From NCBI GenBank assembly GCA_965209035.1, contig CBDBPY010000001.1, positions 1 to 64,000 on the forward strand: a stretch of 64,000 bases of DNA, given 5' to 3'. The notes under the pieces are model-generated. The model made no database searches, was not told where the DNA came from, and saw only the letters and a program-made list of their open reading frames with translations. This document shows, one piece after another, positions 43,672 to 64,000 of this stretch. A program made the position numbers and the translations under genes. The DNA comes from Gammaproteobacteria bacterium (GTDB lineage: Bacteria > Pseudomonadota > Gammaproteobacteria > CBDBNL01 > JAAOII01). Within the stretch, counting starts at the first letter, position 1, and every line of letters starts with the position of its first letter.

Positions 43672-46600
43672 TATTCTTCCCCGACCTGATTGCCCGCCGC
43701 CGACATTTGCTCGCCAGTGTCGGCGTTGATAATCAAAAGCGGATCTTCAAGCGCGAGCGAAGTATGGGCGCTTTCAATTCCGCTTTCCTCGTCGCTCTTT
43801 CCAATGTCTGGAAAAATAACAGCATCGTGGCCATTACCCAACGCTTCATTAATCAAAGAATCCTGCCGACCACGCCCGCCGCTCTGATATAGCGTTCCCG
43901 TGTCCTCCCAAAACAATTGCAACGCCGCGCGTTTTTTCTGCTCGTCCGTGCGCTCTCTTTCATCGTCGCTGTTGCCGTCGTCGTCATCGATCGCGCTATC
44001 GTCATCGATCCCGCTGTTCTCTCTCTCTTCCCTGTCGTAATCCGATTCATAATCGGAAACTTCGTCTCCGTATTCCGACAACGCCCACTCTTTCAGCCAC
44101 GGCGGCGGGTCTATCGGGCCAAAAGTTCCATCATCACGCACTCCCTCAAACAAATCTCCAATCACCAACGGATTTTTCGCCGCAATGCGAGCGCGAATCA
44201 AACGCTTGCCATACATCGTCTCCCCGCCCGGTGTCGATGAAAAATAAAAATGGCTGGCAGTTTTTGTTTTCCGAATATCAAAATCGGGAAACTCCTCGTT
44301 GGTGCGATGATTCCAAATCTCATTGGAAAGCGGCGCATATTTCAACCGCGGATCGAGATTGGGATTATATTTTCCGTTCTCATCGATCGCCTTTTTCGGC
44401 GGCGGAATCGAAAACACCAACCCCCCCGACACTCCTCCCATCTCCCTAATCTTTCTCGCGCGACCACCCGACAAATCCTCTATCTTCACATCACCCCTCA
44501 ATACCCGCGAAAATAAATCCGCCGCCTCGTCCGCCGACGACAATCCCTCCCTCCTCAACCAACCCGACAAACGACGCAAAAATCTCATTATCCTCGATAT
44601 TATCCCGTCCCCTCCCTTCCTATGCCAATCCTGTATCGCGTATCCAAACGCCTCCTCTTCCTCCAACCACGACCAATCGCTTACACCCGGATTCCTGCTC
44701 TTCGTCTCCTCCACGCTCCTTTTTATATCTGCACCGTATCGCTTCTTCCACTCCGGCATCATCTCCTCCACCCTCTCCCTATCACGACCCGACAAATGCT
44801 CGTAGAACACGTGCCCTATCTCGTGCGCCAGCGTCGACATCGCCTCCTCTTCACCCTCCGATGATTCCAAATCCAACGCTATCTTTATCACCCGCGCCGC
44901 CGGATCGAATGACCCACCTCCACGACCCCCATCGCTCTGTATCCGTAAATCCAATCCGAAAGAATCCCTCATCCCCGAACCCTCAAAAAATTCATTCAAA
45001 CGACCCGCGATACGCAACGACTCTCTCTTTTTCTTCGGATCAATCGCTTCCACCGCGTCCTTCCATCTCTCCACCCCGCCGTGCGCCGCATACACCTCCG
45101 CTTTCCCCGAATCGCTCATACTCCGAACCACATTCGGATACTCCGCCAAAATCACCTTTGCCGGCAAGCGCGCTTCAACACGCTCTCCCACCACAACCGA
45201 TCCGTCTCCGTCGGCCGTGGCGAAAAAAACAGGCGCGGCATCCGTAAATCGACGACGCTCCCGCGCGGTGTAATTGTCTCTGCTCGGAATCGAATACCGT
45301 TCATCCGACGGCCACTTTTTCCTAAACCAGCGATTCGCATATCTGATTTTCGCCATCTCCTCCTTTATCATTTTGACAGCATATTTTTCTGTCTTTTTCG
45401 CATCCGATTTCAACTCCCTAATCTCCGATTTCGAATAATCCTCTTCCTCTAATAATCGGTCGTATTCGTCCTCCAACATACTCCTCCATTCGCTCGCATA
45501 TTCAAGCAACTCTTGGAATTTGTCTCGAAGTTTGGCTGTGATTTTGTTAATCTGATCTTCATCTGGAACGATTTCGGGATATCCACCCGCGCCGTCGTAT
45601 TCCAAAAGTTTTGTATCAGCGAGATTATGGAAATAATCTCTTGGAAAAATACCCCGAACTTGCGATCTCCAACCATTCTCGATCCAAATTTTCCTTATAT
45701 TTATCACCCCATCCTCCAACTCTCCCAATTTTTTCGCGCCCTCATCTGTTACTTCCCAAAACGGCTTATCCCCGATTACCCCTCGCGGAATCGAAAACCT
45801 CTCAACACCACCCGAACCCAACAGCCGAACCAATCCCGACTTCATCTCCAAAATCCTCATCACCGAACCGCGCGACTTCGAACGACCCCACACCTTACGA
45901 CCATTCCTCATCAACTCCCAACCATCTCCCAAAAACGACAAATCCGATTCCACCGCCGTCGCCCCCGGATCAATCTTGTAATAACGCGACGCGCCCGAAC
46001 CCACCGACGATATCCTCATCGTCTCAAATATCGCCGTCTCTCCGTTATCCACACCCTTCATCAACTCCTCCGCGCTCATCGACAAACCCGTATCCTTACC
46101 AGACATCATCTCCCTCGCCGCCGACTCCATCTTGCCGCGCAACCACACTCCCACAAACGTCTCCCCTCCCCTCGTTGTAAATTGCCTCAATCGCAACGAC
46201 GAATCCGATCCCGACACCCCCGGCGTTTTCTTTTTCAATCTCTTCCACTGCCGCAATGTGTCGCCACCAAACGGAATCACCAACTTGCGCGAAACCGCAA
46301 ACGACTTCGACTCCATCCTCTCCGACCACGCCTCCTTAAATATCTTGTCCCCCGACTTGTATTCGCCCGCCCTCATCGGTAAATTCTTGCCCCCGTCCTT
46401 CCCTTTTTTCAATCTCTCAATCTCACCCTCCGAATACTCACGAAACGACTCCCTCCCATCAGGCGACACTATCCTCACCGCGTCCACCACCGTGTTATCC
46501 ACTCCGGCCATCTGCGGCCGGCGATAATATCCCGTCACATCTCTCTCCCACACCACCACCGCCACCGGATTTCCCAATCGATTCACAGCGAAAAAATACG

Positions 46601-49600
46601 ACTCCTCCGACTTGTTCCCGCCAATCGAATCGCCGCTTATCCGACTCATTATATCCTCCATCGATATCGTCGCGCGACGGCTTTTCATCACCACCTCCCG
46701 AAATTCAAAATCATCCACCGACACCGATTCCCCCGCTTCAATCATATCCGCCGACTCTTTCACTATCCCCTCCGAATAACGCCCTATCCTCTTATCCATT
46801 TCAATCAATCTTTCTCGCTCCCGCAATACCGTCCCCACAAAATCCGTCCGATTAAACGCCGTCGCCAACCGATTCAACTCATCAGACCCCCTATCCCTCG
46901 TCATCTCCAATCTCTCTTTCAACCACACCAAACGACGATAATCGTATATCGCCGTCTCGTCTTTCTCGTTCCGATTCTTTTTCGACTCCGCCCTGTCGCT
47001 TTTCTTTTTCAATTCCTTCTCTTCATCCATCAACGACAACTCCTTTTCCCATCCCCGCACCATCGGCGAACTCTTCGATATCGGCAAAAACTTCACCCGA
47101 TTCATCACCTTGTCAAACGCCGGATATGTCTCCTTATCCACCCCGAAATCATAGCCCAAATAATAAAAAATTCCACGATTCGACATCAACACATTCTTAA
47201 CCGCCTCGTTCCCATATTTGTCAAACATATCAAAACCCGACAAAAAATCCATTCCCTCCGTGTATCCCTTACCGCTCGCGCGAGTCACTCCTCCCATCTC
47301 TCTCAACTTCGACAACATCGCACCCATAAATCTCGCCTCCGTCGGATCATTCGAAACATAAGGAATCACCCGATGCGGCTTCGTAGATTGCCTTACACGA
47401 TTGCTCCGACCCAACCCCTGCGTCGCCGCCACCACCTGCCAACCGAAATCAATCGGAATGTGCGCCACCTTGCGACTCCTCACCGGCGAATCAGCGGCCT
47501 CACCCGGCAACCCCTCTCCAAATATCGTCTCCCTCGGATCGTCCCCAAGATTCAAACCCGTCGCGCCGGCGCGCGAAATTATCAAAACCTTCTTCGTGTT
47601 TATCGAATCCTCCCCCTTCGCGTTCTTACCCCAACCCCTTCTCCACAACGACATATCCTCCTTATTCGCCTTGCCTGAACGCTTCGCCACACCGCCCAAC
47701 AACTTACCATTCGCGTCAAACCTCAACATCGCCGAACGACCCGTCACCTCGCCCACCATATCACCCAAATTGCCCCGAATAATGTCTAACGGCGGCAACG
47801 GAATCCCTATCCTCTTTATCAACGACAACGCCTCCTCCCTTTCCTCGTATAGTTTCGGATCTACAAGCGACACCAAAAATGTCTTCGCGTTGATAAAATG
47901 AACGAGAGGATCAAAATCAAGCGTTCCCGCCGAACGCTTCCTTTCCTTTATCTCTCCCTTATTGTCCTTTATCGCCGGAAAAAATAACCTCACCTTCCCC
48001 GAATCCGTCAATACCTTCTCCGCCTCCACTTGCCTATAACCCCTGCCCTTTTCCGACACCGTGTAAAACTTCGTCTCCAACGACACCGATCCGTCCTTGC
48101 CAGCCACCGCGTGCTTCTTCTCAATCGGAAAAATCGCCCTCACCACATTTTCAAACGCTATCGTCGGGTTGTGATCGAACACTTCCGATATGTCGTCCCC
48201 CTCCGACAACGCCCGCAACATCGACTTCTTCAAATCCGCCTCTCCCGTCGAATCACCCTGCAAAATCACACGCATACCCTTTTTCAACATCTCCCTCACC
48301 AACCCCCCCGACTTCGGCGCAATGTGCGGCAACTTCGATTCAATCTCCAACGCCTTCTGTATCCGCGTAAATAACCCGAAAATCGCCGACCGACGAACAC
48401 CTCGATTTGCGTCCGCCTTTCTCATCTTTTCCTTTTCAATCCCCGCCGCCCACAATTGACTCTCGCTCGCTTCCTCCACCGCCCAAAATATATCCAACAT
48501 CAACTCCCCCGCCCTCTCACTCTTCAATTGCATTCTATCGTCCAATTCTATCGGATACGCCTCGTTCTCAATCCCAAACTCGCTCTGTTGCAACGACGAA
48601 AATACACCCCTCTCTTTCGCTCCCAACGCTATCCCTTCCCCTATCCCTTGCCGCGAACCCTCGTCCGATGAAACCTCACGCATTATCTCGTCCGCCGTCT
48701 CAAATGGATACTCATCACCCACCCCAAACAAGCCAAGACGCGATAAATGACCCAACGAATTCACATTCTTAATCGCCGTCCCCGATAAATATAAAACCCG
48801 CGCCCGCGGATGCCTCATCAAAAATCTCTCCATCAACTTCGCCCGCGCCGAACCCTTCAACTTCCTACCCTCTTCTTTCTCCTCTCCCAAATTACTCACC
48901 AAATGCGACTCGTCCAGCACGATTACCCCATCATAATCATTTCCCATCATCCGATTCAATTGCTCGTATCTCGCGCTCGTCTTGAACGCCGACCCCCTCG
49001 CACCCACCGAAAACGCCTCGTAAGTCAATGCGTAAAAACCATTCTCCACCACCCCCAAATCAGCGTCCGCTTTCTTGTCCCCAACCCTGATATACGACTC
49101 CCCGCTTATCGCTCCCACCGCGCTCAAATCGTCCGCCGCTTGATCTATAACCTCACGCGGCGCAAACATCACCGCCCTCTTTTGTTTCGACACTCTCATA
49201 ACCTCCCTCGCCACCAAACCCGCCAACCTCGTCTTTCCCAAACCCACACCCCAACCCGCCAAATAACCGCCGCGAACCTCAACGCTATCACCGTCCGGCA
49301 TTCCCTCCTCTCCCTTAAATTCATTCCTCAACTTCACCAATCTATCAAACGCGTCCAGCGCCTGCAATCCAATCGCCGCCTGATAATCATAAACCTGCGA
49401 TAAATCACCCCCTATCCTCGACGATTCCGCAACCAACGGCGGCATTACTCCCGCCATATTCATCGTCTCAACTATATCCGCATTCTTCGGCTTTTCCGTC
49501 GCGCCGGATATCTGATCCAACGACACTATGCTCGTCGGATCGAAACTCACAAACGAACCCTCACCCGATAAATCCCTCTGCACCCTCCTCGCCTTTGCCA

Positions 49601-52600
49601 CTTTTGCCGTCGACGATTTCTCAACCGACACCAACGGCCGCGAAACCAAAATACCATTCCCCGACCACGATAAACCATCGAAAAATCTCGCAAACACCTT
49701 ATTCACCGACGGATCTATCTCACCACCATCTCCCAGCCCAACCGAATCCTCTATCCCCCTATCCGCCAGCATCGCCGACACATAACCCGCAAAATAATCC
49801 CCCATCGCCTCCACCAACGGCTTATCCAACGCCTTCACACTCGCAACCACCTTTTCCACCTCACCCAATCCTATATCCCTGCCCCCATTCAACATCAACG
49901 ACGACAACCAACTACGCGACAAACCATATCCCGACGATAAATCTCCCACATCTCCAAAAGCCCCGCCCAATTTCAATCCCGACTTCGGCGCGCCCACCGC
50001 CGCCGCCAAATCGTGCAAGCCCACATACAATTTCCTGATCTCTTCCTTTCTTTCTCCAACCTTCATCAAACCCTTGCCCACGAAAAATTTCCTCCAATCG
50101 CTAAATCCAATCCATTCATCAATCAACTTCGCCGCGTCAGCGCCGTCAGGTATTTCCGTAGCCGATACATCCGGCGCGCCGACAAGCGACGGGCCCTCTA
50201 TTTCACCCAAATCCCCCTCATCAACGCCTTCGATTCTTTTTGCGTCCTCATCCGTCTTATCCTCCCCCACAACCCCCAAATCCAACCCCTCGCCGCGCGA
50301 ATCGCTCTTATCCTCATCTACCCCCTCATCCTCCACCAATTCGGCTAAAACGCCCTCTTTTGCAGGAGATTCCTCAACAATCGGTTTTGTCTCCTCCTTC
50401 ACCATAACCTCTCCTCTACTCTCAACCTCGCTCGCCGCCGACACCATCTCTTCATTCCCCGCCCGATAACCCAATTTCTTCATCACCACATCTCCCTTTC
50501 CCCCTCCTTTCTCAAAAACCAACACCCGAAAATCAAACTTTGCCCCCATCGACCAGTAATGCGAGCCGTCAAATAGCAGATTCGCCCGCAAGTCATCTCC
50601 CCACTTCTCAAATAATTCTCTGCCCGAATCCTTATCAGAACGCAAGGAATGACCCACTATCGCCACCATACGACCTCCATCACGCAACGACTCCAATCCC
50701 CTATCCAACATTCCAGCCGCTATCCCTGCATCGGGCGCGCGACGACTTGGCAAATCCGCCGAACGCGAAAACGGCGGATTCATAAAAACCACATCAAACC
50801 CCTCTCCACCCATCACTTTCTTAAATTCTCCCTTCGCCGATAACTGATCCTCCGGGCTTATTTCAATCTCCGATCCCGCCGGCAACACCGCACGCAAAAA
50901 TCCCGCCCTTTGCTCGTCGTATTCGTTTGCGTAAATCTTGCTCCCCGATAAAAATACCGCCAATCCCCCTGTCCCCGCCGTCGGCTCAAATGACTTTTCT
51001 CCCTTCCTCGCATTCGCCAATAAACCGCCCAAAAAAGCAATTCGCGGCGGCGTAGAATACGCCTGCATCGACTTCTTGTCCGCCGTCGTCTCCGTTTGCC
51101 GCGGCAACAAATCCTCCAAAATCCCCACCGCACCCATCTGATTCCTCGCCGCCGACCAATCCACTTCGCCCGCCGCGTCCCTCGGTATTGCCGTCAAACC
51201 CATATCCAGCAAATATCTATTCACCCCCGCCTCCAACGACTCCCACAAATCACGCGAATTTAAACCGACCGCACCCGCCGAATTCATACGATTATCCAAG
51301 TCCACCCTGTTCGATATCGGATTCTGATCCCTCATCGCTCCCGACACAACCTGATATGCCGCAGTCATCGACTCAATCATCGACTCCGGCGCATCTCTCA
51401 TCTCCTCCAACCCTTTCTCCTCCTCATAAATCCCCGAATTCAACGCCGCCCTCGCCCTCGCCGCAAATCCCGACATCGCCCCCTCCCATACATCAACCGA
51501 CGACATCTCAATCAACAAATCCGACATCTCGTCAACCGATAACGACCACGCCAAAAACGCAGGCCCGCCGCCCCTCTTACCGCGCGGCTCGAATATCCTC
51601 TTACCCCTCCATTTCGGAATCGAGTATTCCCCCGATCTCCACTGCTCCCTATTCATCGCCCAAAAATCACGCACAACGCCGCGCAACCCACCGCCGCGCC
51701 CGAACACCCACTCCGACACGCTCGCCGAATCTCGCAATTCCAACATAGCCGAATTGTCATCAACCGCAGGCGTTTCGCCGGCCACCTCCACATCTCCCTC
51801 GTCCGGCGCCACCGGCAAATCTTTCGCAAGTGTTTCATCCACTTCGACCTCCGACTCCTCCGACCGCGACGATTCGTTATCCGACAAAACCTTTTCCTCC
51901 TGATTCTTTACCCCGCCCGTCCAAACTTCAATCGGATTAAACTCTCCCTCCTCATAACCAACCACCCCATCTTCACCAGATCCAATATGAAACGATCGCT
52001 TTCTTTCCTCTTTTTCTTCCTCCCGACTAGTATACGATACCTCACCCGAATAATACTTCGGCTTAACCACCACCAACATATCTTCCGCGATAAACGATAT
52101 CGCCTCCAACCCATTCAAAAACACATCGACCTCCGACTTTCCACGCGCTTTCGCCAACTCTCCAATCGCCCGCAAATATCTCGCGTCGACATAAACATCA
52201 GCCCTTTCGTATTCTATCCGCGCCGTTCCCCACTCCATTTTTGGCTTCGAATCTTTATTCTCTCGACGATCCTCTTTCTTAATGCCAATAAGATACCTCG
52301 TATCCTGCACGAAACGCGCCGTCGCCTTTTTCGGAATAACCCGCTCGATTTCTTCCTGATTGTAAAAAGCCACATCGAAATCAACTTCCCCGTTTTTCCG
52401 AAACATAAAACCATCATCCGGCGCGCCGTCCAATGTAGGAATACCAGACACCAACGCCATCGCCTGTTCGTCCGTTGCAACCGCCCGCCCAGCCACGAAA
52501 TATATGCCGCCAAGACTCATTTTTTTCAAATCGCCCTTATTATCAGCCGAAAACAAAAACATCGCCCGCCGCGTCTTTTCGTTCGCCTTGTCCGCCTCCA

Positions 52601-55600
52601 CCGCCGCCGATAGACGCGCACCCTTGTCCGCGTTATCAATCTCCTCTTGCTCTCGCTCGCTCCACATATTCCGTCCGTCGCTCTCCACATTGTCGTCGCC
52701 GCCCTCGGTTTTCTCCTCATTCTCCTCGATCGACTCGATCGACTCGATCGGCTCGCCTGATATCATCTTTTTCCAATCCTCAACCGGCCGAAAATCACCC
52801 CAATTTATCTCAACGAGCAACTTGATAGCCCCCGACTTATTTATATTGTCATCGCTTTGCACCATATCTCCCAACGCCTTGTTGCCCGAAAAAATAAACA
52901 CGCGGTGGTATTCTTCTCTCGCCCGCTCGATTTTTCCCTGCTCGTAAAAACCTATCTTGCTGATATATCCCCACCCCTCATCTCCCACCAAATCATACAC
53001 CATCCGCAAACTACGCGAATCCAACGCAAAAAACTCTTTGCCATCTTCTCCCACAAACGAATAAACATCATTGCCAACCTCTATTTTTCCGTTCAAACCA
53101 ACCTTTACTTTTCCTTCCAACGAAGGCAATCTAAACCTAAACACCGCGCTTTTAACGAAATCCGAATACGAATCAACGCCCTTTTCTCCCGCCTCAAATT
53201 CACCAAGCGTTGCGTCGCCGCGAACACCAACCGAAACTTTCGGATTACTCCTGCTCCCCGACAACTTTATCGTCAAACCGCCTTGCCGCTCGCCATCGAA
53301 GTAATCGTTATCCATATCCATTTTCGGCAACCCGCCAACAGCCGCGTTTGATCCCCCATATCTCGCCCAAGCCAAACCGCCCAACTCATCGAAAAAATCA
53401 TCGGTGTGGCTTATCTCCCAATCACGCGAAAAAGGAGTCAATCGCTTTCGCGCTGACGCAACTTCGGGTTTTAATATGAAGGCGATCGCCTGTTTTCTTT
53501 TAATGCCTGCCTTCGTTTTAGGCGGCTCTTCCTCATCTTTCGCCTTCTCCTCCGCCGACTCCTCTTTCACCGTCTCCTCCGCCGGCGCAACCGGCGGCGC
53601 AACCGATTCCGACACGATTACCCGCTTCTTCCCTCGCTTCTCCACTTTGAGACCAATCGCCTCCGCAACCGCTCCATCAGTTTGCTCGAACGCCACTCCC
53701 CGATTTTTCAAGTAAGACCAAAATTCCTTTTCTTCTCTCCCCTCAAAATTCGGAAGCACAGCCGCCGCATATTTAACCGCCGCCGCATTCGCCTCCTCAA
53801 TCGACCCCGAAAAATTCGCAATCGCCATCGCGCGATTTATCACATCTTCGCCTGCGCCATCATAACCCTGCGCCGACAGCAAATCCAACCACTCCGACCT
53901 CTCCGGCTTTCTTCCCTCCGAATCCAACACCGCGCCGATCGCCTCGTCCCGGCCATCCTCGACATATTCCGTTGCGGCGAGATCGTCGCTCGCCCCGTCC
54001 CCCAATTTATCGATTCTTTGATATTCCGCCAAAAATTCCTTAGCCTCATTCGAATCTGTGGTATTATCGGGCTGGATTTTCGCTTCGCGCCCACCTCCTT
54101 CTCCATCTCCTCGCGAAGTGGAAATCCCTTTTTTCCCCTTAACAATCCTCCCCGACGCTCTCGCGCCGCGCGCCTTGTCCGTCGCCTCCAAAATCGAATC
54201 CAACGCCTTCGCGCCAGTATCTCCCACGCTTTCCGCAAACTGCCGCAATGCCTCCTCGCCGCCCCTTCTCGCTTTGACGAACGCCCGACCCGCCGCCGCC
54301 AATCCCTCGTCGCCCCCAAATTCTTCCCGCGCCGCGTCCGTTGCCGAACCCAATTTTTCATCCACTCGGCGATACTTTTTCGCTCTCCAAACCGCGTGTC
54401 GAGGATGAACGCGGAAACTCGGCGGAACATAGCGACCATCACTAGCCGCCGCCAACTCCGCCCAATCACTCTCGATTTCAATCATCATCGATTCCAACCG
54501 CTCCAATCTCCCCGCCTTTTTCTCCCCTCCGCCTTTTTTCTCCGCCGCGCGAGCCGTTGCCCTATTTTTCACGCCTGCAACCGCCGATTCACCCGATCTC
54601 AATTCGCCCGATAATTTTTCATATCCCTCGATATTCGAGCGCAATCTCTCATCAATCGATTCCATTCCCGACGGCGGGCGACGCGAATCCAACAACCCCG
54701 ACACCAATCCCCGCGCACTGGCCGGAATCGCCGCCAAACCCTTTTTTACATAATCCGGCGCAACTTTCACAATCGCCGCCTCGACATCTTTCACACCACC
54801 AGACCAATTTTCCCCAAGTTGCGATTGCAGACCAGCCACAAAATTTCCGCCGCCGTCCTCACTTTTTCGATCCATCGCCGCAACCGCCGCCGCAAGCGAT
54901 TCCCGCGCCACGTCCGCCGTCGCACCCGGAACATAACCCATCGCCTCCTTGTCCGTCATCGAACTCGGCTTCGCGCCCGACAAAAGCGCGCCGCGTATCG
55001 CCGTCGCCAACTCCGCCGCCGCCCGCTCGTCCGCCCCGCTCGCAATCGCCTCGGCCGACAATTCACCAGCAATATCGCCGGCCCTCGAAACGCGCAACGC
55101 CGCATCCGTCGTTCCCCTTTTCGCCGCCCTCTCCGCTCTCTTATCCCCCAACCGCTTCGCCGCCTTCGCGCCCAAGCCAACGCCCGCCGACACAACCTCC
55201 GCGCTCGCGCCACCGCCCAAACCCCCTGCAAAACCCGCCGTCGCAGAAATCGCAATCTCCTCCGCCGTCGGAAAATCACCAGCCGCAACCGCCCCCGCAA
55301 ACAATTCCGCCGTCTCCTCCGCCGCTTCCTGCCCGGGCTCGAACAAAATCCCCGTCGCTCCACGTGAAACAGCAGGGTAAATTCTACCGCCAAGACCACC
55401 TAAAACCGCCCCCGCTCCGCCGCCAAGAGCCCAAGCAAGAGGCAGGCGCCTGCTTATCTCCGCTTCTCCAACTCCCGCAGTCCTCAATCTTTCCCTCGCT
55501 TCGTCGGCACTAAACGCACCAGACAAAGCACCACCAAAAGTTGCCGCTCCTCCCGCCGGAGACGACAACGCCGTTCCCGCTTTTTGTAGCGCCGTTCCCT

Positions 55601-56210
55601 TTTTCGCCAACGATAAAGCCGCTCCTGCACCGCGAATCGCACCAATTCCAGCGATAGAAAACGGCAAACTTCCAACGCCTTGACCGAGCGCATACTTAAA
55701 ATGATTCGGATTGATCCCACCATCCTCAAAAAACGGCCTCGCCTTCTGCCCCGCCGTATGTGCGTCTTCCTCGACAACATCAACTCCGTCCCCAAATGCC
55801 GCATCGTAAAAATCTTTCGGCAAAGCCAAACCTCTCTTGACTCCCTCACCAAAACTTTCTTTTCCCGATTCCAATAATTCAATGTCTCCCCATCCGCCGT
55901 TTCCATTAGACGGACTCACACCAACAACATCAAATCCGTCGTCCCTGTCCACGATCCCCCAAACCACATTTACCCCTTTCGCATCCGCGAAATCAACTAT
56001 TGCTTGGCCAGTATTCGCGTTTATCGGGATTATAGGTATATTTTTTGCGTCATCGGCGATATCAAGCCGGAATCCGTCGAGCCCGCTCCGCAACTTTGGC
56101 TTTGCTCGCCTTCGACCGCCTGCGGAATATCGATTCCGGATATCACTGGCGATTTGAGGAGCGCTTTGAGACAAGTCAATCGGGGTAATCGGTTCGGGCA
56201 TAAAATTCAT
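43671..56210 (-). CDS. Giant polyvalent DarB-like virion protein (N6-MTase, Strawberry-notch SF2 helicase, metallopeptidase, ADP-ribosyltransferase-like)
   Basis: EPTAGTG/FMNPPF; GWGVGLGKTR, LDESH, YLSGT, SRAGATGLNL, QGLGRSNR; LAHEIGH; NHRT..F..FD...FYFSS...KNPL...GHDAVIF. True start possibly ATG 56201. Confidence 0.88.
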   Translation of the reverse strand: MNFMPEPITPIDLSQSAPQIASDIRNRYSAGGRRRAKPKLRSGLDGFRLDIADDAKNIPIIPINANTGQAIVDFADAKGVNVVWGIVDRDDGFDVVGVSPSNGNGGWGDIELLESGKESFGEGVKRGLALPKDFYDAAFGDGVDVVEEDAHTAGQKARPFFEDGGINPNHFKYALGQGVGSLPFSIAGIGAIRGAGAALSLAKKGTALQKAGTALSSPAGGAATFGGALSGAFSADEARERLRTAGVGEAEISRRLPLAWALGGGAGAVLGGLGGRIYPAVSRGATGILFEPGQEAAEETAELFAGAVAAGDFPTAEEIAISATAGFAGGLGGGASAEVVSAGVGLGAKAAKRLGDKRAERAAKRGTTDAALRVSRAGDIAGELSAEAIASGADERAAAELATAIRGALLSGAKPSSMTDKEAMGYVPGATADVARESLAAAVAAMDRKSEDGGGNFVAGLQSQLGENWSGGVKDVEAAIVKVAPDYVKKGLAAIPASARGLVSGLLDSRRPPSGMESIDERLRSNIEGYEKLSGELRSGESAVAGVKNRATARAAEKKGGGEKKAGRLERLESMMIEIESDWAELAAASDGRYVPPSFRVHPRHAVWRAKKYRRVDEKLGSATDAAREEFGGDEGLAAAGRAFVKARRGGEEALRQFAESVGDTGAKALDSILEATDKARGARASGRIVKGKKGISTSRGDGEGGGREAKIQPDNTTDSNEAKEFLAEYQRIDKLGDGASDDLAATEYVEDGRDEAIGAVLDSEGRKPERSEWLDLLSAQGYDGAGEDVINRAMAIANFSGSIEEANAAAVKYAAAVLPNFEGREEKEFWSYLKNRGVAFEQTDGAVAEAIGLKVEKRGKKRVIVSESVAPPVAPAEETVKEESAEEKAKDEEEPPKTKAGIKRKQAIAFILKPEVASARKRLTPFSRDWEISHTDDFFDELGGLAWARYGGSNAAVGGLPKMDMDNDYFDGERQGGLTIKLSGSRSNPKVSVGVRGDATLGEFEAGEKGVDSYSDFVKSAVFRFRLPSLEGKVKVGLNGKIEVGNDVYSFVGEDGKEFFALDSRSLRMVYDLVGDEGWGYISKIGFYEQGKIERAREEYHRVFIFSGNKALGDMVQSDDNINKSGAIKLLVEINWGDFRPVEDWKKMISGEPIESIESIEENEEKTEGGDDNVESDGRNMWSEREQEEIDNADKGARLSAAVEADKANEKTRRAMFLFSADNKGDLKKMSLGGIYFVAGRAVATDEQAMALVSGIPTLDGAPDDGFMFRKNGEVDFDVAFYNQEEIERVIPKKATARFVQDTRYLIGIKKEDRRENKDSKPKMEWGTARIEYERADVYVDARYLRAIGELAKARGKSEVDVFLNGLEAISFIAEDMLVVVKPKYYSGEVSYTSREEEKEERKRSFHIGSGEDGVVGYEEGEFNPIEVWTGGVKNQEEKVLSDNESSRSEESEVEVDETLAKDLPVAPDEGDVEVAGETPAVDDNSAMLELRDSASVSEWVFGRGGGLRGVVRDFWAMNREQWRSGEYSIPKWRGKRIFEPRGKRGGGPAFLAWSLSVDEMSDLLIEMSSVDVWEGAMSGFAARARAALNSGIYEEEKGLEEMRDAPESMIESMTAAYQVVSGAMRDQNPISNRVDLDNRMNSAGAVGLNSRDLWESLEAGVNRYLLDMGLTAIPRDAAGEVDWSAARNQMGAVGILEDLLPRQTETTADKKSMQAYSTPPRIAFLGGLLANARKGEKSFEPTAGTGGLAVFLSGSKIYANEYDEQRAGFLRAVLPAGSEIEISPEDQLSAKGEFKKVMGGEGFDVVFMNPPFSRSADLPSRRAPDAGIAAGMLDRGLESLRDGGRMVAIVGHSLRSDKDSGRELFEKWGDDLRANLLFDGSHYWSMGAKFDFRVLVFEKGGGKGDVVMKKLGYRAGNEEMVSAASEVESRGEVMVKEETKPIVEESPAKEGVLAELVEDEGVDEDKSDSRGEGLDLGVVGEDKTDEDAKRIEGVDEGDLGEIEGPSLVGAPDVSATEIPDGADAAKLIDEWIGFSDWRKFFVGKGLMKVGERKEEIRKLYVGLHDLAAAVGAPKSGLKLGGAFGDVGDLSSGYGLSRSWLSSLMLNGGRDIGLGEVEKVVASVKALDKPLVEAMGDYFAGYVSAMLADRGIEDSVGLGDGGEIDPSVNKVFARFFDGLSWSGNGILVSRPLVSVEKSSTAKVAKARRVQRDLSGEGSFVSFDPTSIVSLDQISGATEKPKNADIVETMNMAGVMPPLVAESSRIGGDLSQVYDYQAAIGLQALDAFDRLVKLRNEFKGEEGMPDGDSVEVRGGYLAGWGVGLGKTRLAGLVAREVMRVSKQKRAVMFAPREVIDQAADDLSAVGAISGESYIRVGDKKADADLGVVENGFYALTYEAFSVGARGSAFKTSARYEQLNRMMGNDYDGVIVLDESHLVSNLGEEKEEGRKLKGSARAKLMERFLMRHPRARVLYLSGTAIKNVNSLGHLSRLGLFGVGDEYPFETADEIMREVSSDEGSRQGIGEGIALGAKERGVFSSLQQSEFGIENEAYPIELDDRMQLKSERAGELMLDIFWAVEEASESQLWAAGIEKEKMRKADANRGVRRSAIFGLFTRIQKALEIESKLPHIAPKSGGLVREMLKKGMRVILQGDSTGEADLKKSMLRALSEGDDISEVFDHNPTIAFENVVRAIFPIEKKHAVAGKDGSVSLETKFYTVSEKGRGYRQVEAEKVLTDSGKVRLFFPAIKDNKGEIKERKRSAGTLDFDPLVHFINAKTFLVSLVDPKLYEEREEALSLIKRIGIPLPPLDIIRGNLGDMVGEVTGRSAMLRFDANGKLLGGVAKRSGKANKEDMSLWRRGWGKNAKGEDSINTKKVLIISRAGATGLNLGDDPRETIFGEGLPGEAADSPVRSRKVAHIPIDFGWQVVAATQGLGRSNRVRQSTKPHRVIPYVSNDPTEARFMGAMLSKLREMGGVTRASGKGYTEGMDFLSGFDMFDKYGNEAVKNVLMSNRGIFYYLGYDFGVDKETYPAFDKVMNRVKFLPISKSSPMVRGWEKELSLMDEEKELKKKSDRAESKKNRNEKDETAIYDYRRLVWLKERLEMTRDRGSDELNRLATAFNRTDFVGTVLRERERLIEMDKRIGRYSEGIVKESADMIEAGESVSVDDFEFREVVMKSRRATISMEDIMSRISGDSIGGNKSEESYFFAVNRLGNPVAVVVWERDVTGYYRRPQMAGVDNTVVDAVRIVSPDGRESFREYSEGEIERLKKGKDGGKNLPMRAGEYKSGDKIFKEAWSERMESKSFAVSRKLVIPFGGDTLRQWKRLKKKTPGVSGSDSSLRLRQFTTRGGETFVGVWLRGKMESAAREMMSGKDTGLSMSAEELMKGVDNGETAIFETMRISSVGSGASRYYKIDPGATAVESDLSFLGDGWELMRNGRKVWGRSKSRGSVMRILEMKSGLVRLLGSGGVERFSIPRGVIGDKPFWEVTDEGAKKLGELEDGVINIRKIWIENGWRSQVRGIFPRDYFHNLADTKLLEYDGAGGYPEIVPDEDQINKITAKLRDKFQELLEYASEWRSMLEDEYDRLLEEEDYSKSEIRELKSDAKKTEKYAVKMIKEEMAKIRYANRWFRKKWPSDERYSIPSRDNYTARERRRFTDAAPVFFATADGDGSVVVGERVEARLPAKVILAEYPNVVRSMSDSGKAEVYAAHGGVERWKDAVEAIDPKKKRESLRIAGRLNEFFEGSGMRDSFGLDLRIQSDGGRGGGSFDPAARVIKIALDLESSEGEEEAMSTLAHEIGHVFYEHLSGRDRERVEEMMPEWKKRYGADIKRSVEETKSRNPGVSDWSWLEEEEAFGYAIQDWHRKGGDGIISRIMRFLRRLSGWLRREGLSSADEAADLFSRVLRGDVKIEDLSGGRARKIREMGGVSGGLVFSIPPPKKAIDENGKYNPNLDPRLKYAPLSNEIWNHRTNEEFPDFDIRKTKTASHFYFSSTPGGETMYGKRLIRARIAAKNPLVIGDLFEGVRDDGTFGPIDPPPWLKEWALSEYGDEVSDYESDYDREERENSGIDDDSAIDDDDGNSDDERERTDEQKKRAALQLFWEDTGTLYQSGGRGRQDSLINEALGNGHDAVIFPDIGKSDEESGIESAHTSLALEDPLLIINADTGEQMSAAGNQVGEE

Positions 56211-59568: not shown

Positions 59569-59604
59569 GTTTCAATCCACCCCCGCCCTGCGGCGAGGAA
59601 AAAC
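59569..59604 (-). CRISPR. Solitary CRISPR repeat-like unit, type I-C-like
   Basis: GTTTTTCCTCGCCGCAGGGCGGGGGTGGATTGAAAC: 8-bp hairpin followed by the 11-nt TGGATTGAAAC handle typical of I-C repeats; intergenic. Confidence 0.7.
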
Positions 59605-60096: not shown

Positions 60097-60281
60097 CTCG
60101 GCAACCCCTCGCCAGCAAAAACGCGGCAAATGCTTCCACGATGATCGACAAACCAAGATTTGGGAGCAGGGCGCGGCGGGTTTCGCGCGTCATCGATCAA
60201 CGCCTTAAACGATGTCATCGCTTCGCCGATTGTCTCGTCGGCATCTACCGATTCGGGTTTTGTGTTGGGGTTTTTTTCCAT
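60093..60281 (-). CDS. Small hypothetical protein (repeated-leader gene D)
   Basis: MEKNPN... behind the conserved leader. Confidence 0.6.
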   Translation of the reverse strand: MEKNPNTKPESVDADETIGEAMTSFKALIDDARNPPRPAPKSWFVDHRGSICRVFAGEGLPR

Positions 60282-60365
60282 TTTGATTTTCCTCATTTTT
60301 GGATTTTTCGACGATCGGAATATCGCCGTTATTGAGATTTTACACCCAAAAAAAAGACAAGTCAA
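60279..60365 (-). promoter_or_regulatory. Promoter, hairpin and conserved RBS leader (copy D)
   Basis: TTGACT-17-TAAAAT, hairpin CGGCGAT/ATCGTCG, AAATCCAAAAATGAGGAAAATCAAAATGG. Confidence 0.78.
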
Positions 60366-61242: not shown

Positions 61243-61676
61243 TCTTGCCCCTCGATTTGCGCCGACGATCCCACGACAGAGTTATACGCCGCGTCGTGCC
61301 GATCGCCCGCCGTCGCCTTGCGGATAACTTCCTTTGGAAAAATTTCGATGAAAAAACTTCCGCCGATAACACCCCGACAAAATATATCCGGAGACAACTC
61401 TCCATTATCTCTAATTGCGCTGACGGTCATCAGCGGGCCGCCCGACTTCAGGCAGACAACATCGCCCGCCTTAAATTTGTCGGCTTGTGATAACACAAAA
61501 CGATCGCCCACTTTGAGCGGACACTTGCACCAAATATATCCAACGCCGCCGCCAAGATTTTTCGCATTTGGCGCGGGATAAACGGCAGAGTCGTATTCGG
61601 CGACGAGTTCTTGAATGTAGAGGATTTTTCCTTCTACATCGTGATAGGCCAAATAGCCGTTAGGGTTGCTTTCCAT
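61239..61676 (-). CDS. YodC/DUF2158-domain protein (repeated-leader gene E)
   Basis: FKAGDVVCLKSGGPLMTV. Confidence 0.7.
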   Translation of the reverse strand: MESNPNGYLAYHDVEGKILYIQELVAEYDSAVYPAPNAKNLGGGVGYIWCKCPLKVGDRFVLSQADKFKAGDVVCLKSGGPLMTVSAIRDNGELSPDIFCRGVIGGSFFIEIFPKEVIRKATAGDRHDAAYNSVVGSSAQIEGQE

Positions 61677-61760
61677 TTTGATTTTTCCTCGTTTTGGATT
61701 TTTGGAGATCCAGCGCCTCCATTTATTTTCGATTATACGCTCTTTTCGTCCGTTTTTCGA
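61674..61760 (-). promoter_or_regulatory. Promoter, hairpin and conserved RBS leader (copy E)
   Basis: TCGAAA-17-TATAAT, hairpin TGGAGG/TCTCCA, AAATCCAAAACGAGGAAAAATCAAAATGG. Confidence 0.72.
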
Positions 61761-62116
61761 GTCCGCGATTTCGGGTCGCGCGGCGGGATTTTATCGAGGA
61801 TTGATTCCAAAATCGCCTCCATTTTTTTGATTTCTTTCTTGACTTCCTCGATCTCTTCGTGCGCCGATTTTGTGGAATCTCGCAATTTCTTGATTACGCC
61901 GTTCGCTCCTCTAAGCCAAGGCAACATAAATACAAGCCGCCAGCCCTGCGACAACGAAAACCCAACGCCCCAAACTATCGCCAGCGCGACGGCGATTGCG
62001 AGAATCGCCCGCAACGCCGGAAACGGCGAAAGGACGGCAAATAAATCCTCGAACGCCATAATAAGGCGGTCGATAATATCCAAAGCAAATTGCTCGTTCG
62101 GCGTTTCGTCTCTCAC
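61733..62116 (-). CDS. Membrane protein with coiled-coil C-terminus (holin-like candidate)
   Basis: TM segment followed by a charged coiled coil. Confidence 0.55.
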   Translation of the reverse strand: MRDETPNEQFALDIIDRLIMAFEDLFAVLSPFPALRAILAIAVALAIVWGVGFSLSQGWRLVFMLPWLRGANGVIKKLRDSTKSAHEEIEEVKKEIKKMEAILESILDKIPPRDPKSRTRKTDEKSV

Positions 62117-62264
62117 AGCCAATCCCCTGCTTCATCGCGGCGGCGATTTCTGATCGATTCCTCCAATCCCAAATCCAGCGCGTCGCCTTGCGGATAGCGT
62201 TCTGGAATAAAGAGCTTGCGCGGCTTGCAGTCCCTTTTTTGTAGCCAATGGCGGTGCGCTCTAT

Positions 62265-62312
62265 CCGCTTCGCTTTCCGCTTCGCTTTCCGCTTCGCTTT
62301 CCGCTTCGCTTT
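62265..62312. repeat. Tandem repeat (CCGCTTCGCTTT)x4
   Basis: Four exact 12-bp copies abutting the mini-array. Confidence 0.95.
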
Positions 62313-62410
62313 GTAATAAACCTGCGCCTGCCCGCAATCCACAACTATATCGTCGGCGGAGCGGTGCGATGAGAGATTTTAATAAACCTGTGCCTGCCGC
62401 AATCCACAAC
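62310..62410 (-). CRISPR. Mini CRISPR array, type II-C-like: repeat(35)-spacer(30)-repeat(36)
   Basis: GTTGTGGATTGCGGCAGGCACAGGTTTATTAAAAT (62376-62410), spacer 62346-62375, GTTGTGGATTGCGGGCAGGCGCAGGTTTATTACAAA (62310-62345). Confidence 0.75.
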
Positions 62411-62422
62411 TGTTGCATCGTT

Positions 62423-62527
62423 TTATCGCCCGAAAACCTTTTTGATTTTGTCGATTGCGTTCGCCCACAAAATGACAATCGCCAACAAGAGCGTGCCGAA
62501 AACCCCTTTGACGGATTGCAGGTTCAC
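62423..62527 (-). CDS. 34-aa single-TM peptide
   Basis: GTGA-coupled to the Tad1-like gene; VFGTLLLAIVILWANA. Confidence 0.45.
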   Translation of the reverse strand: MNLQSVKGVFGTLLLAIVILWANAIDKIKKVFGR

Positions 62528-63018
62528 CGCTCCAACTTGCCTTCCACGCCGCGCTTTACGCGGTCGCGGCGGCGGCTCGCAAGGGCTTCGATTGCTTCCT
62601 TTGCCTTTTCGATCGCAAGCGCGTTTTCGTCGCAAGCGAATTTTCCGTCTTGGAAAATTTTAACCGGCGCAATAGCGGCGGCGATAAGGGCTTCGGGCGT
62701 TATGCCGTTGAGTTGCGGGTCTTTGTCGGGCGTGATATTGCCTTGCCGCGCGACAACTCGATCGAGCAGGTCGATGGTGAATTTTTGGATTTTGACAATA
62801 TCGTCGCGCGACGAATTTGAGGGGTTATTCGCAATGAAGGCAAGGGCATCAGCATCCGAAAGATACGCCTTGTCTGGCGGCAAAATGAAAAAATCGATTT
62901 TGTCGCCGCCGGGTTCTCCTTCGGCAACAGCCGAATAAAATCCGATAATCCGCGCGTTGGCGGGGGAGACGGCGCGATGGTCGCTGATTATGGAGAGGTG
63001 GAGAGGGAGGTTTGCCAT
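62524..63018 (-). CDS. Tad1/Acb2-family anti-defence sponge-like protein
   Basis: GEPGG...NGITPEALI...FQDGKFACDENALA....EA...L..RR.DR..RGVEG matches the Tad1 helical hairpin (FQAGPF..RENA.AL..EEA..W..RR..DR..R.V.G). Confidence 0.75.
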   Translation of the reverse strand: MANLPLHLSIISDHRAVSPANARIIGFYSAVAEGEPGGDKIDFFILPPDKAYLSDADALAFIANNPSNSSRDDIVKIQKFTIDLLDRVVARQGNITPDKDPQLNGITPEALIAAAIAPVKIFQDGKFACDENALAIEKAKEAIEALASRRRDRVKRGVEGKLER

Positions 63019-63036
63019 TTTTGACTCCTGTGTTGT

Positions 63037-64000
63037 TTATTCGCTCGGCGGGATTTCGTCGGCGGGCGCTTCGGCGGGCGCTTCGGCGGCTTCCAATCGC
63101 AAGACGAGTCCGTTCGCTCCTTGCGAGGGCGTAATGTCGGCTGTGCCAGGGGCTATGGTAGCGGCGGCGATTCGCGCGATCTCGGAATTGTCGCCCGCGT
63201 CGAGAATCACAGCGATTTGCGCCGTGTGATTCTCGATTCGAATCCAAGTCGCGCCGCCTGCGCCGACGGGCGAGGCGATGGAAACGCCGCGCTCGAAACT
63301 TGGCGCGCACAGGTGGGCTTCGGAATGGATATCGCCGCTCGCGTCGATGGCGAAAATGTCGGCTGGAATGCCGAAAGAATTGGAATCTTCGGCGACGGTG
63401 ATAGTCGCGCCGCCGCTTTTTGCGATGACATTGATTCCAACTGCGGCATCAAGCGCCCACGCTTCGGCGGCGGCTTCGGCGGCTCCGGTCTGGTCGGCGA
63501 AAGTATCGTATTCGCTGTAATTCGTTCGGGAACGCTCGCGGCGAATGACTCCAAGAACATACTCCGCGCTCCCTGTGGCGGCTTTGATTGCGGTAATCAG
63601 CGGCGCAATGTCGGATTCGCAAATGGCGCGCGCTTTGTGTCCGGCGTGAGTCCGCTCGGCAATAGCGAGGATTCGATCGGCGACGAAAGGGGTGAAACGG
63701 AATAAATCCGAACTGGCGGGGAGATTGTGATTTACTCCCACATTGTCGATTGCGGCGATGAGCGCGAGCATAATGCGGGCGTGAAACGCGCTGTGCTTGG
63801 CGTTGCTGTTCTCCCGCGCGGCGCGATGTTCTTCGCTCCCGCCGTGCGCCAAACGCGCGAGGATTCCTGCGCGCCGTGCGCTTCCGATTCGGGCGTTTTC
63901 GTCCGCGTCGGTTCGTGCGAAAAGATGACGCTCGATTTTGGATTGCGACAATCGCGGAACGATTTGGCCTGTCGGCAAGCCCGCTTCGTCGAAAGTCAAG
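63037..64000 (-). CDS. C-terminal part of a large virion/tail-fibre-like protein entering from the right edge
   Basis: Frame is open to the window edge; Ala-rich, with codon usage like the 1-3527 ORF. Confidence 0.6.
   Translation of the reverse strand, partial: LTFDEAGLPTGQIVPRLSQSKIERHLFARTDADENARIGSARRAGILARLAHGGSEEHRAARENSNAKHSAFHARIMLALIAAIDNVGVNHNLPASSDLFRFTPFVADRILAIAERTHAGHKARAICESDIAPLITAIKAATGSAEYVLGVIRRERSRTNYSEYDTFADQTGAAEAAAEAWALDAAVGINVIAKSGGATITVAEDSNSFGIPADIFAIDASGDIHSEAHLCAPSFERGVSIASPVGAGGATWIRIENHTAQIAVILDAGDNSEIARIAAATIAPGTADITPSQGANGLVLRLEAAEAPAEAPADEIPPSE

What the first reader, a model, noticed from the sequence alone, without database searches (positions are those of the whole stretch)
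62310..62410. Cas-less type II-C-like mini CRISPR array in an anti-defence neighbourhood
Seen: two near-identical 35/36-nt repeats flank a 30-nt spacer, the canonical type II geometry. Repeat 1 ends in TAAAAT. No cas9 or anti-repeat was found in the window, and the array follows the Tad1-like gene. Established: II-C repeats carry a 3' -10 box that transcribes each crRNA; the G.TG.GGATTGCGG start recalls the Parvibaculum-type alphaproteobacterial II-C repeat (from memory). Inference: the phage borrows host Cas9 and tracrRNA, either to target something or to titrate them. With the I-C unit, it mimics two CRISPR types.
Basis: partly seen in the sequence, partly recalled or inferred. Interest (0 to 1): 0.88.

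Follow-up and report, generated by a model that had tools for sequence, protein, structure and literature searches.

The report
Phage-borne type II-C CRISPR mini-array
A phage carries a repeat–spacer–repeat copy of a Cas9-type CRISPR array that is abundant in the same sample, placed among its anti-defence genes, so it probably feeds a decoy or hijacking guide RNA into its host's Cas9.

Summary
On the minus strand, 62410..62310 reads 35-nt repeat, 30-nt spacer, 36-nt repeat. These are the only two copies in the 2.24-Mb assembly.

The repeat is a CRISPR repeat. Related period-66 arrays lie beside cas9 in 3 of 3 loci checked. In three runs of one sample, contigs show the same 36-nt repeat separated by at least 8 different 28–31-nt inserts, at depths reaching well above the phage's. 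That array is on a replicon outside this assembly.

The contig is a phage. The assembly's chromosome has only V-A-like arrays, no Cas9 and neither repeat, so it is probably not the host.

The mini-array follows a Tad1 homologue. About 2.7 kb downstream lies a solitary repeat of a second co-occurring array (I-C-like), and that array holds a spacer matching this phage.

Not shown: expression, a tracrRNA, Cas9 in the sample, or any target of the spacer. No contig of those runs covers the phage's own spacer plus first repeat.

Verdict: a new member of a known kind (viral mini-arrays, RNA CRISPR mimics), with a clear natural context. Interest 0.58.

The parts
62376..62410 (-). Repeat 1 (35 nt). Against the repeat of the co-occurring array (whose last base is inferred) it has a 1-nt deletion at position 15, G21A and C33A. 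Its 3' end reads TAAAAT.
   Evidence: comparison with the same-sample repeat.
62376..62381 (-). Putative -10 box (TAAAAT) at the 3' end of repeat 1. A start about 7 nt downstream would give a guide of about 24 nt.
   Evidence: Read from the sequence. Related arrays end in TACAAT, TATAAT, TAAAAT or TACACT. Promoters inside II-C repeats are described in PMC5965381 (passages). The simple sigma-70 scan did not call this site. The function is inferred.
62346..62375 (-). 30-nt spacer; no target found.
62310..62345 (-). Repeat 2 (36 nt). Positions 62311-62346 are letter-for-letter the repeat of the multi-spacer array in the same sample. Its last base differs from the inferred native base, so it ends TACAAA instead of TACAAT.
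   Evidence: X2 record 11 has 0 other letters over 62311-62346, and 8 of 8 listed inserts end in A on the + strand. Also.
62264..62312 (.). Perfect 12-nt tandem repeat, 4.1 copies, directly after repeat 2. Role unknown.
62116..62424 (-). The 309-nt cassette holding the mini-array, the tandem repeat and a 146-nt tail. It lies between the stop of a 34-aa ORF and the start of the next gene. A minor variant replaces it with 429 other letters.
   Evidence: joint 62115/62425 in X2 record 9, depth 3.1..
62423..62527 (-). Small ORF (34 aa, hydrophobic). Its GTG start overlaps the stop of the Tad1-like gene, and it ends at the cassette border.
   Evidence: It is a mechanical ORF and is not otherwise supported.
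62524..63018 (-). Tad1-like (Thoeris anti-defence 1) gene, 164 aa, directly upstream on the same strand.
   Evidence: 8kbb_A E 1.1e-8, residues 97-162; four further Tad1-named sequences and one Tad1-fold entry under another name, 7uav, at E about 6e-3 to 8e-3. (phrog_2428, E 9.8e-18).
59569..59604 (-). Solitary repeat of a second, I-C-like CRISPR type. 26 of 27 letters match the repeat halves seen in same-sample contigs.
   Evidence: (table 7). Rfam CRISPR-DR2 and DR9 hits below threshold, with exactly these borders.
61795..61825 (+). Protospacer inside the 129-aa gene. In same-sample contigs this stretch sits between two halves of the I-C-like repeat.
   Evidence: loose ends at 61795 and 61825 in X1 and X3; this bin's depth is 75 against about 20 (X1) and 407 against 65-96 (X3).

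Best explanation
The element is a Cas-less CRISPR mini-array of type II-C descent, carried by a phage. Repeat 2 is a copy of the repeat of a large array that belongs to another, abundant replicon in the same sample, most likely the phage's real host.

The unit lies on the coding strand, just after a Tad1-like anti-defence gene. It is therefore transcribed with the phage's genes, and possibly also from the -10-like TAAAAT at the end of repeat 1.

The product would be one crRNA: about 24 nt of guide plus the 5' part of repeat 2. That crRNA pairs with the host's tracrRNA and is loaded into the host's Cas9.

I take the main effect to be anti-defence. A highly expressed phage crRNA occupies tracrRNA and Cas9 at the expense of the host's own anti-phage crRNAs, and may redirect Cas9. 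It would act beside the I-C-like solitary repeat and the Tad1 homologue as one island aimed at one host.

Shown: the geometry, the repeat family, the identical repeat in a co-occurring array, the phage nature of the contig, the neighbours, and a co-occurring CRISPR spacer against this phage.

Inferred: transcription, pairing with tracrRNA, loading into Cas9, and the inhibitory outcome.
For: - Geometry of 35/36 + 30 nt, and only two copies in the assembly.
- The first 20 nt of repeat 2 equal the repeats of L105, L137, L140 and L141. Whole-repeat identity to natural period-66 arrays is 24-28 of 36.
- Three of 3 related arrays with enough flanking sequence lie beside cas9: L041 (674.7 bits, with type II cas1 and cas2), G310 (692.6 bits) and G258 (559.5 bits).
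- Same sample: the summed contig depth over 62311-62357 is 267, 339 and 32,806 in X1, X2 and X3, against roughly 15-20 and 92-120 on the phage flanks. Contigs read repeat, then 28-31 other letters, then repeat; 8 different inserts are listed, 7 with period 66 and 1 with period 65. X2 record 11 matches 62311-62346 without a difference.
- Phage hallmarks: portal, large terminase, internal virion protein.
- Tad1 homologue directly upstream. I-C-like solitary repeat at 59569-59604. A co-occurring spacer equals 61795-61825.
- Literature: viral mini-arrays carry host-identical repeats (PMC11656645, passages). Solitary repeats act as RNA anti-CRISPRs and cluster with acr genes (PMC10651486, passages). 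Phage guide-plus-repeat RNAs that use host tracrRNA and Cas9 are reported for type II (bioRxiv 10.64898/2026.06.01.729453, abstract and section 10). II-C repeats carry promoters (PMC5965381, passages).
Against: - There is no cas9, no tracrRNA-like anti-repeat and no second copy of the repeat anywhere in G000. The assembly's chromosome has V-A-like arrays only.
- Cas9 and tracrRNA were not seen in the sample itself. The type is inferred from relatives of the repeat.
- No public array has the exact repeat. The best is 28 of 36.
- No contig of runs X1-X3 covers 62358-62404, and most window-like phage contigs leave the window sequence left of 62429. The mini-array form may be a minority variant.
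- The sigma-70 scan finds no promoter at repeat 1. The 309-nt cassette folds no better than shuffles (z -0.16).
- A decoy does not need a full 30-nt spacer.
- No relative of the phage could be found to test conservation.
Confidence: 0.4

Rival explanations
1. It is an inter-virus or inter-element weapon, the classical viral mini-array. The crRNA arms the host's Cas9 against a competing phage, plasmid or a host gene carrying the 30-nt protospacer, to this phage's benefit.
For: - The review PMC11656645 (passages) says most spacers of viral mini-arrays target related viruses, and that this was validated for two archaeal viruses.
- The spacer is full length (30 nt) with native geometry.
- The same sample holds a diverged relative of this phage (X1 record 6, depth 7.2, aligned in pieces with mismatches) and alternative cassettes at this very site.
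Against: - No protospacer was found in G000, in viral contigs by exact 20-mer, in the phage and plasmid collections (best E 0.6 and 2), or in the fetched II-C loci.
- This is weak evidence, because the phage has no relatives in those collections.
- The setting among anti-defence genes fits counter-defence at least as well.
Confidence: 0.25
2. It is an inert relic. A piece of the host array was picked up by recombination between phage DNA and the host CRISPR locus, and it is decaying without function.
For: - Repeat 1 has three changes, including a 1-nt deletion in the part that would pair with tracrRNA. Repeat 2 has lost the last T of the inferred TACAAT.
- The cassette is dispensable: a variant replaces it with 429 other letters.
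- The exact form is not seen in the three runs.
- There are no relatives with which to show conservation.
Against: - Repeat 2 keeps 35 of 36 native letters, including the whole tracrRNA-pairing half. The changes in repeat 1 leave a consensus-like -10.
- It has the same orientation as all phage genes, sits directly behind a Tad1 homologue, and a second repeat mimic lies in the same 3-kb region. This looks like a selected island rather than random debris.
Confidence: 0.2
3. It is an assembly artefact. Reads of the very abundant host array were wrongly joined into the phage contig.
For: - The native array is far deeper than the phage in X3.
- No Logan contig covers 62358-62404, or joins 62305 to repeat 2, or joins repeat 1 to 62429.
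Against: - Both sides of the 309-nt cassette are phage sequence. The tail 62116-62293 is contiguous with the next phage gene at full phage depth in all three runs (records 2, 8, 16).
- Repeat 1 is a unique diverged copy, and the spacer is absent from the native-array contigs listed. A mis-join would bring in exact repeats and native spacers.
Confidence: 0.06
4. It is a duplication inside a real protein-coding gene (the mechanical 121-aa ORF 62113..62478), or a pair of protein-binding or operator repeats unrelated to CRISPR.
For: - An ORF spans both copies and the tandem repeat, and its TGA overlaps a possible GTG start of the next gene.
- The start-to-start spacing of 65-66 bp is about six helical turns.
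Against: - The indel puts the first 14 nt of the two copies in different reading frames.
- There are no Pfam or PHROG hits.
- Of 1.84 billion representatives, only 1 scores E <= 0.001 (5e-5). It is an unrelated 500-aa internally repeated protein.
- The same 36 nt occurs in the sample interleaved with at least 8 different 28-31-nt inserts, which no coding duplication explains.
- The codon-usage test was uninformative.
Confidence: 0.03

Closest known systems
Viral CRISPR mini-arrays (one or two spacers, no cas genes), as reviewed in PMC11656645
   Same: It is on a virus genome and has one spacer between two repeats and no cas genes. The repeat is identical to that of a co-occurring, presumably host, array. 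It would depend on host Cas proteins.
   Different: It is of type II-C descent, so it would also need the host's tracrRNA. No related-virus target was found. It lies in an anti-defence island. The first repeat is diverged.
RNA anti-CRISPRs (Racr; solitary repeat units; PMC10651486)
   Same: A phage-borne mimic of a host CRISPR repeat, placed beside anti-defence genes. The same phage also has a true solitary repeat of a second type at 59569-59604.
   Different: It has two repeats plus a full spacer. The SRUFinder rules quoted in that paper would class it as a mini-array rather than an SRU. In the passages I read, Racrs were validated for I-C, I-E, I-F and V-A, not for type II.
Viral scaRNAs and viral sgRNAs (bioRxiv 10.64898/2026.06.01.729453)
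   Same: A phage RNA made of guide plus repeat that would pair with host tracrRNA and enter Cas9. It is found near anti-defence genes, and both sequestration and redirection of Cas9 are possible.
   Different: Those RNAs carry short guides that match the cas9 promoter and derive from host regulatory scaRNA or tracr-L. Here there is a full 30-nt spacer, an upstream repeat, no tracrRNA part, and the host cas9 promoter is unknown.
Type II-C CRISPR arrays with promoters inside the repeats (PMC5965381, reviewing Zhang et al. 2013 and Dugar et al. 2013)
   Same: 36-nt repeats and 30-nt spacers. The repeat's 5' half is shared with arrays next to cas9-cas1-cas2, and its 3' end resembles a -10 box.
   Different: There is only one spacer, no cas genes and no tracrRNA in the same genome, and it is carried by a phage.

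Membership tests
Type II-C CRISPR-Cas locus | Array of about 36-nt repeats and about 30-nt spacers | tested here: met
   Repeats of 35 and 36 nt with a 30-nt spacer. However, there is only one spacer.
Type II-C CRISPR-Cas locus | Repeat belongs to a family found beside cas9-cas1-cas2 with no fourth cas gene | tested here: met
   L041 has cas9 (674.7 bits), type II cas1, cas2 and then the array, with no further cas ORF in between. G310 and G258 have cas9 within about 1.6 kb of their arrays. Identity to repeat 2 is 24-26 of 36 for these three and 28 of 36 for L137.
Type II-C CRISPR-Cas locus | cas9 in the same locus or genome | tested here: not met
   The best TIGR01865 match in G000 scores 22.6 bits against a cut-off of 100, and it lies on C1.
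Type II-C CRISPR-Cas locus | tracrRNA with an anti-repeat | tested here: not met
   G000 holds no complementary stretch beyond 14 nt exact or 18 nt with one mismatch, E >= 0.16. Candidate anti-repeats do exist in the related loci L041, L131, L185 and L186.
Viral CRISPR mini-array | Carried by a virus, with one or two spacers and no cas genes | tested here: met
   Portal, large terminase and internal virion protein. One spacer. No cas9 on the contig, and the assembly's only Cas1 match lies on the chromosome C1.
Viral CRISPR mini-array | Repeats identical to those of the host's array | tested here: inconclusive
   Positions 62311-62346 are identical to the repeat of a multi-spacer array in the same sample. 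That this array's owner is the host is inferred. The link is a co-occurring I-C-like spacer matching the phage, at similar depth in X3.
Viral CRISPR mini-array | Spacer targets a related virus or other element | tested here: inconclusive
   No target was found. The collections hold no relatives of this phage.
Racr (solitary-repeat RNA anti-CRISPR) | A single repeat without a spacer or second repeat | tested here: not met
   There are two repeats 30 nt apart. The unit at 59569-59604 does meet this feature.
Racr (solitary-repeat RNA anti-CRISPR) | Co-location with anti-defence genes | tested here: met
   A Tad1 homologue ends 113 nt upstream of repeat 1, on the same strand.
Viral scaRNA | Short guide matching the host cas9 promoter, followed by a repeat that pairs with host tracrRNA | not testable with these tools
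   The host cas locus is not available. There is no match above chance to the fetched II-C loci. The spacer here is full length.

The most novel reading that the evidence does not exclude
This may be the type II-C counterpart of an RNA anti-CRISPR. In II-C arrays each repeat carries the promoter for the next crRNA. The smallest self-expressing mimic would therefore be repeat (promoter), guide, repeat (tracrRNA handle), which is exactly this unit.

The phage would flood the host's tracrRNA and Cas9 with its own guide. It would combine this with an I-C solitary repeat and Tad1 in one island, disarming two CRISPR types and Thoeris of a single host. That host already holds a spacer against the phage.
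Probability: 0.3. Interest if true: 0.75.

Novelty: new member of a known kind. Interest (0 to 1): 0.58.

Why it matters
Phage RNAs that mimic CRISPR parts are a young field. In the passages I read, solitary repeats were validated for types I and V, and type II mimics (viral sgRNAs and scaRNAs) appear only in a 2026 preprint.

This is a natural case in which the mimic, the mimicked array, a host spacer against the phage and a second mimic of another CRISPR type all occur in one sample. That makes the host link and the direction of the arms race directly testable.

It also shows that the phage contig was probably filed with the wrong chromosome: CRISPR evidence points to another organism as host.

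If the unit proves to inhibit Cas9 through tracrRNA competition, it would be a compact natural Cas9 off-switch.

Tried and rejected
- Coding reading: Pfam and PHROG gave nothing for the 121-aa ORF. The representative search gave 1 hit at E 5e-5, which is an unrelated internally repeated 500-aa protein.
- The codon log-likelihood test trained on 19 long ORFs was uninformative. Even the PHROG-supported Tad1-like gene scored negative.
- Structured RNA: Rfam gave 0 hits at gathering level for the window and only chance-level hits locally. The cassette fold has z -0.16.
- Promoter/terminator scan: no promoter at repeat 1, and one weak terminator-like hairpin inside repeat 2.
- Relatives of the phage: 4 of 4 neighbouring proteins gave no relative in viral contigs. 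There was no DNA match in the phage collection. Among 60 relatives of G000 the only hits were to the 12-nt tandem or at chance level.
- Exact repeat elsewhere: 0 in viral contigs. None among the 48 metagenome loci. In 401 genomes of the class only related arrays appeared, in G310 and G258. In the order of G310, 0 of 12.
- Spacer target: none.
- Spacers of the native array against the phage: 0 of the 8 listed inserts match at up to 3 mismatches. Four were tested against all of G000 and four against the window only. Many more inserts were not listed.
- The 84 spacers of the chromosome's V-A-like arrays have no full-length match on the phage contig, and the phage has no V-A repeat mimic.
- C2 shares no DNA with C1, and its tetranucleotide correlation is 0.63 against at least 0.93 within C1.
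- Expression: no RNA holder was listed. X4, from another sample, laid 0 reads.
- Cross-pairing of repeat 2 with candidate anti-repeats of related loci gives -13.6 to -39.4 kcal/mol, against -34.4 to -54.8 for their own repeats. I did not use this, because the cognate tracrRNA is unknown.
Supplementary tables of the cited papers were not opened; they may list type II solitary repeats or viral scaRNAs that bear on novelty.
- I saw no description of a phage-borne II-C repeat-spacer-repeat unit in the listings and passages read, which is not proof that none exists.
- One genome flagged unpublished (G145) gave two chance matches.

Full report
**What is there.** All long ORFs of the window lie on the minus strand. 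Read on that strand, 62410..62310 is a 35-nt repeat (R1: GTTGTGGATTGCGGCAGGCACAGGTTTATTAAAAT), a 30-nt spacer, and a 36-nt repeat (R2: GTTGTGGATTGCGGGCAGGCGCAGGTTTATTACAAA). The copies agree in 32 of 36 aligned columns, with one 1-nt deletion in R1 and three substitutions. A 19-mer from the repeat with up to 3 mismatches occurs twice against 0.01 expected; 0 of 100 shuffles reach two. The window is positions 1-64000 of a 65,717-bp contig, C2 (GC 54.0%). It is filed with a 2,178,278-bp chromosome, C1 (GC 49.2%). Neither contig holds another copy or a complementary anti-repeat.

**It is not a gene and not a known RNA.** A mechanical 121-aa ORF (62113..62478) runs through both copies, but the indel puts their first 14 nt in different frames. 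It has no Pfam or PHROG match. Of 1.84 billion representative proteins, only one reaches E <= 0.001 (5e-5), and it is an unrelated, internally repeated 500-aa protein. A codon-usage test was uninformative. Rfam gives nothing, and the cassette folds no better than shuffles.

**The repeat belongs to a type II-C family.**
They include true period-66 arrays. Closer forms that start GTTGTGGATTGCGG are in L031, L041 and L105.
- A metagenome scan (48 loci) added two more families. A search of 401 genomes of the chromosome's class added arrays in G310 and G258.
- Identity to R2 is 24-28 of 36. The first 20 nt are identical in L105 and L137. The 3' ends read TACAAT, TATAAT, TAAAAT or TACACT. The first 14 letters were partly forced by my patterns, and positions 16-20 were forced in the metagenome scan.
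- L041 has cas9 (674.7 bits), type II cas1 and cas2 next to its array, with no fourth cas gene. G310 and G258 have cas9 (692.6 and 559.5 bits) within about 1.6 kb of theirs. That is 3 of 3 loci with enough flanking sequence.
- No public array has the window's exact repeat.

**The same repeat forms a large array in the same sample.**
- Three runs of one sample and one study hold the region. That sample is probably the source of the assembly, so this is not independent confirmation of the phage.
- Laid on 61700-63100, their contigs give a summed depth of 267, 339 and 32,806 over 62311-62357. The phage flanks lie at roughly 15-20 (X1, X2) and 92-120 (X3).
- Contigs 'go back' from 62346 to 62311 with 28-31 other letters in between. 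Eight different inserts are listed, 7 with period 66 and 1 with period 65. Their depths are 4-405 in X3 and 15.9 in X1.
- X2 record 11 matches 62311-62346 with no difference.
- All 8 inserts end in A on the + strand. I infer that the native repeat ends TACAAT where R2 has TACAAA.
- Contig ends show non-window sequence of about 250 letters or more beside the repeat. The array therefore sits on another replicon. It is not in G000.

**Host.**
- C2 is a phage: portal, large terminase, internal virion protein, RecT-like and Gam-like proteins.
- C1 has one cas1 and two large arrays whose repeat ends like a V-A (Cas12a-type) repeat. That type label is from recall. The 19-nt repeat core occurs 88 times, giving 84 spacers. 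C1 has no Cas9.
- None of C1's spacers matches C2, and the phage has no mimic of that repeat. C1 and C2 share no DNA, and their tetranucleotide correlation is 0.63 against at least 0.93 within C1.
- In contrast, contigs of X1 and X3 carry phage positions 61795-61825 between two halves of a second CRISPR repeat (...GGATTGAAA | GTTTTCCC...), with clear extra depth there. A co-occurring array therefore holds a spacer against this phage.
- One near-exact copy of that repeat (26 of 27 letters) stands alone in the phage at 59569-59604, and there is none in C1. Rfam CRISPR-DR hits there are below threshold.
- The phage's true host is thus most likely another abundant organism of the sample, carrying II-C and I-C-like arrays. 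That both arrays share one genome is inferred only from their similar depth in X3.

**Neighbourhood.**
- The gene directly upstream (62524..63018) is a Tad1 homologue (8kbb_A, E 1.1e-8, over its C-terminal 66 residues).
- A 34-aa hydrophobic ORF follows, with a GTGA start/stop overlap.
- Then comes the 309-nt cassette 62424..62116: R1, spacer, R2, a perfect 12-nt tandem repeat of 4.1 copies, and a 146-nt tail. The next gene follows.
- A minor variant contig replaces exactly 62116-62424 with 429 other letters. This is a swappable accessory slot.

**Mechanism proposed.** In type II-C arrays promoters sit inside the repeats, so crRNAs start within the spacers (PMC5965381, passages).
- R1 keeps a -10-like TAAAAT. 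R2 keeps the whole 5' half that would pair with tracrRNA, but has lost the last T of its own box.
- The unit could thus make one crRNA with a guide of about 24 nt, whether by read-through from the Tad1-like gene or from R1.
- Because R2 equals the native repeat, this RNA should pair with the native tracrRNA and enter the native Cas9.
- Given the anti-defence setting and the second repeat mimic, I favour an anti-CRISPR effect by occupation or redirection of Cas9 and tracrRNA (0.40). The classical use against a competing virus comes next (0.25). An inert relic follows (0.20).
- None of the RNA steps is shown.

**Evidence against, and open points.**
- No target of the spacer was found.
- None of the 8 listed native inserts matches the phage.
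- No Cas9 or tracrRNA was seen in the sample itself.
- No relatives of the phage exist in the collections searched, so conservation cannot be judged.
- No contig of the three runs covers 62358-62404. The depth figures leave no contig joining the tandem repeat to R2, or R1 to 62429, and window-like contigs diverge left of 62429. The exact mini-array may be a minority variant. A mis-join is unlikely, because both flanks are phage sequence and R1 and the spacer are unique, but it is not excluded.

**Comparison and novelty.** Viral mini-arrays with host-identical repeats are reviewed in PMC11656645. Solitary-repeat RNA anti-CRISPRs are described in PMC10651486, where I-C, I-E, I-F and V-A were validated in the passages read. 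Phage crRNA-like regulators are described in bioRxiv 10.1101/2024.10.29.618823. Viral sgRNAs and scaRNAs that use Cas9 are described in bioRxiv 10.64898/2026.06.01.729453 (abstract and section 10). This element works like those and fits best as a viral mini-array of II-C descent. It is not a II-C locus, because cas9 and tracrRNA were tested and not met. It is not a solitary repeat. I rate it a new member of a known kind, made interesting by its unusually complete natural context.

Noticed in passing
window 59569-59604 (-): A solitary 36-nt repeat ending GGATTGAAAC, 26 of 27 letters identical to repeat halves seen in same-sample contigs. It has Rfam CRISPR-DR2 and DR9 hits below threshold with exactly these borders, and there is no copy in C1. 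It is a likely RNA anti-CRISPR of a second (I-C-like) type.
   Followed up: partly
window 61795-61825 (+), inside gene 61733..62122: In contigs of runs X1 and X3 this stretch sits between two halves of the I-C-like repeat, with extra depth. A co-occurring CRISPR array therefore holds a spacer against this phage.
   Followed up: partly
window 62524-63018 (-): A 164-aa protein whose C-terminal 66 residues match Thoeris anti-defence 1 (PDB 8kbb_A, E 1.1e-8; phrog_2428). The N-terminal half is unassigned.
   Followed up: partly
window 62116-62424, and left of 62429: A variable cassette slot. One minor contig replaces the cassette with 429 other letters. Other window-like contigs (X1 record 4, depth 11.3) continue into at least 700 nt of different sequence left of 62429. 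A diverged relative of the phage (X1 record 6, depth 7.2) is also present.
   Followed up: no
window 62264-62312: A perfect 12-nt tandem repeat (4.1 copies) directly after the second CRISPR repeat. Its role is unknown.
   Followed up: no
window 61659-61710, 60264-60316, 31388-31440, 16475-16548, 9478-9509 (-): A conserved start cassette, AAATCCAAAACGAGGAAAAATCAAAATGGAAA (ribosome-binding site plus ATG GAA A..), lies upstream of five genes of the phage.
   Followed up: partly
G000:C1:1955076-1963783: The chromosome filed with the phage has cas1 and two large arrays; the 19-nt repeat core occurs 88 times, giving 84 spacers. The repeat looks V-A-like (type from recall). None of the spacers matches the phage. 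With no shared DNA and dissimilar composition as well, the phage contig is probably filed with the wrong organism.
   Followed up: partly
window 43671-56210 (-): A single 4179-aa ORF, very large for a 66-kb phage. It was not examined.
   Followed up: no
L132, L138, L154, L156, L168, L175, L176 (metagenome contigs): The same HTH-like gene end is followed by a II-C-type repeat and then by different sequence in different contigs. This is population variation, or assembly breaks, at the start of one natural array.
   Followed up: no
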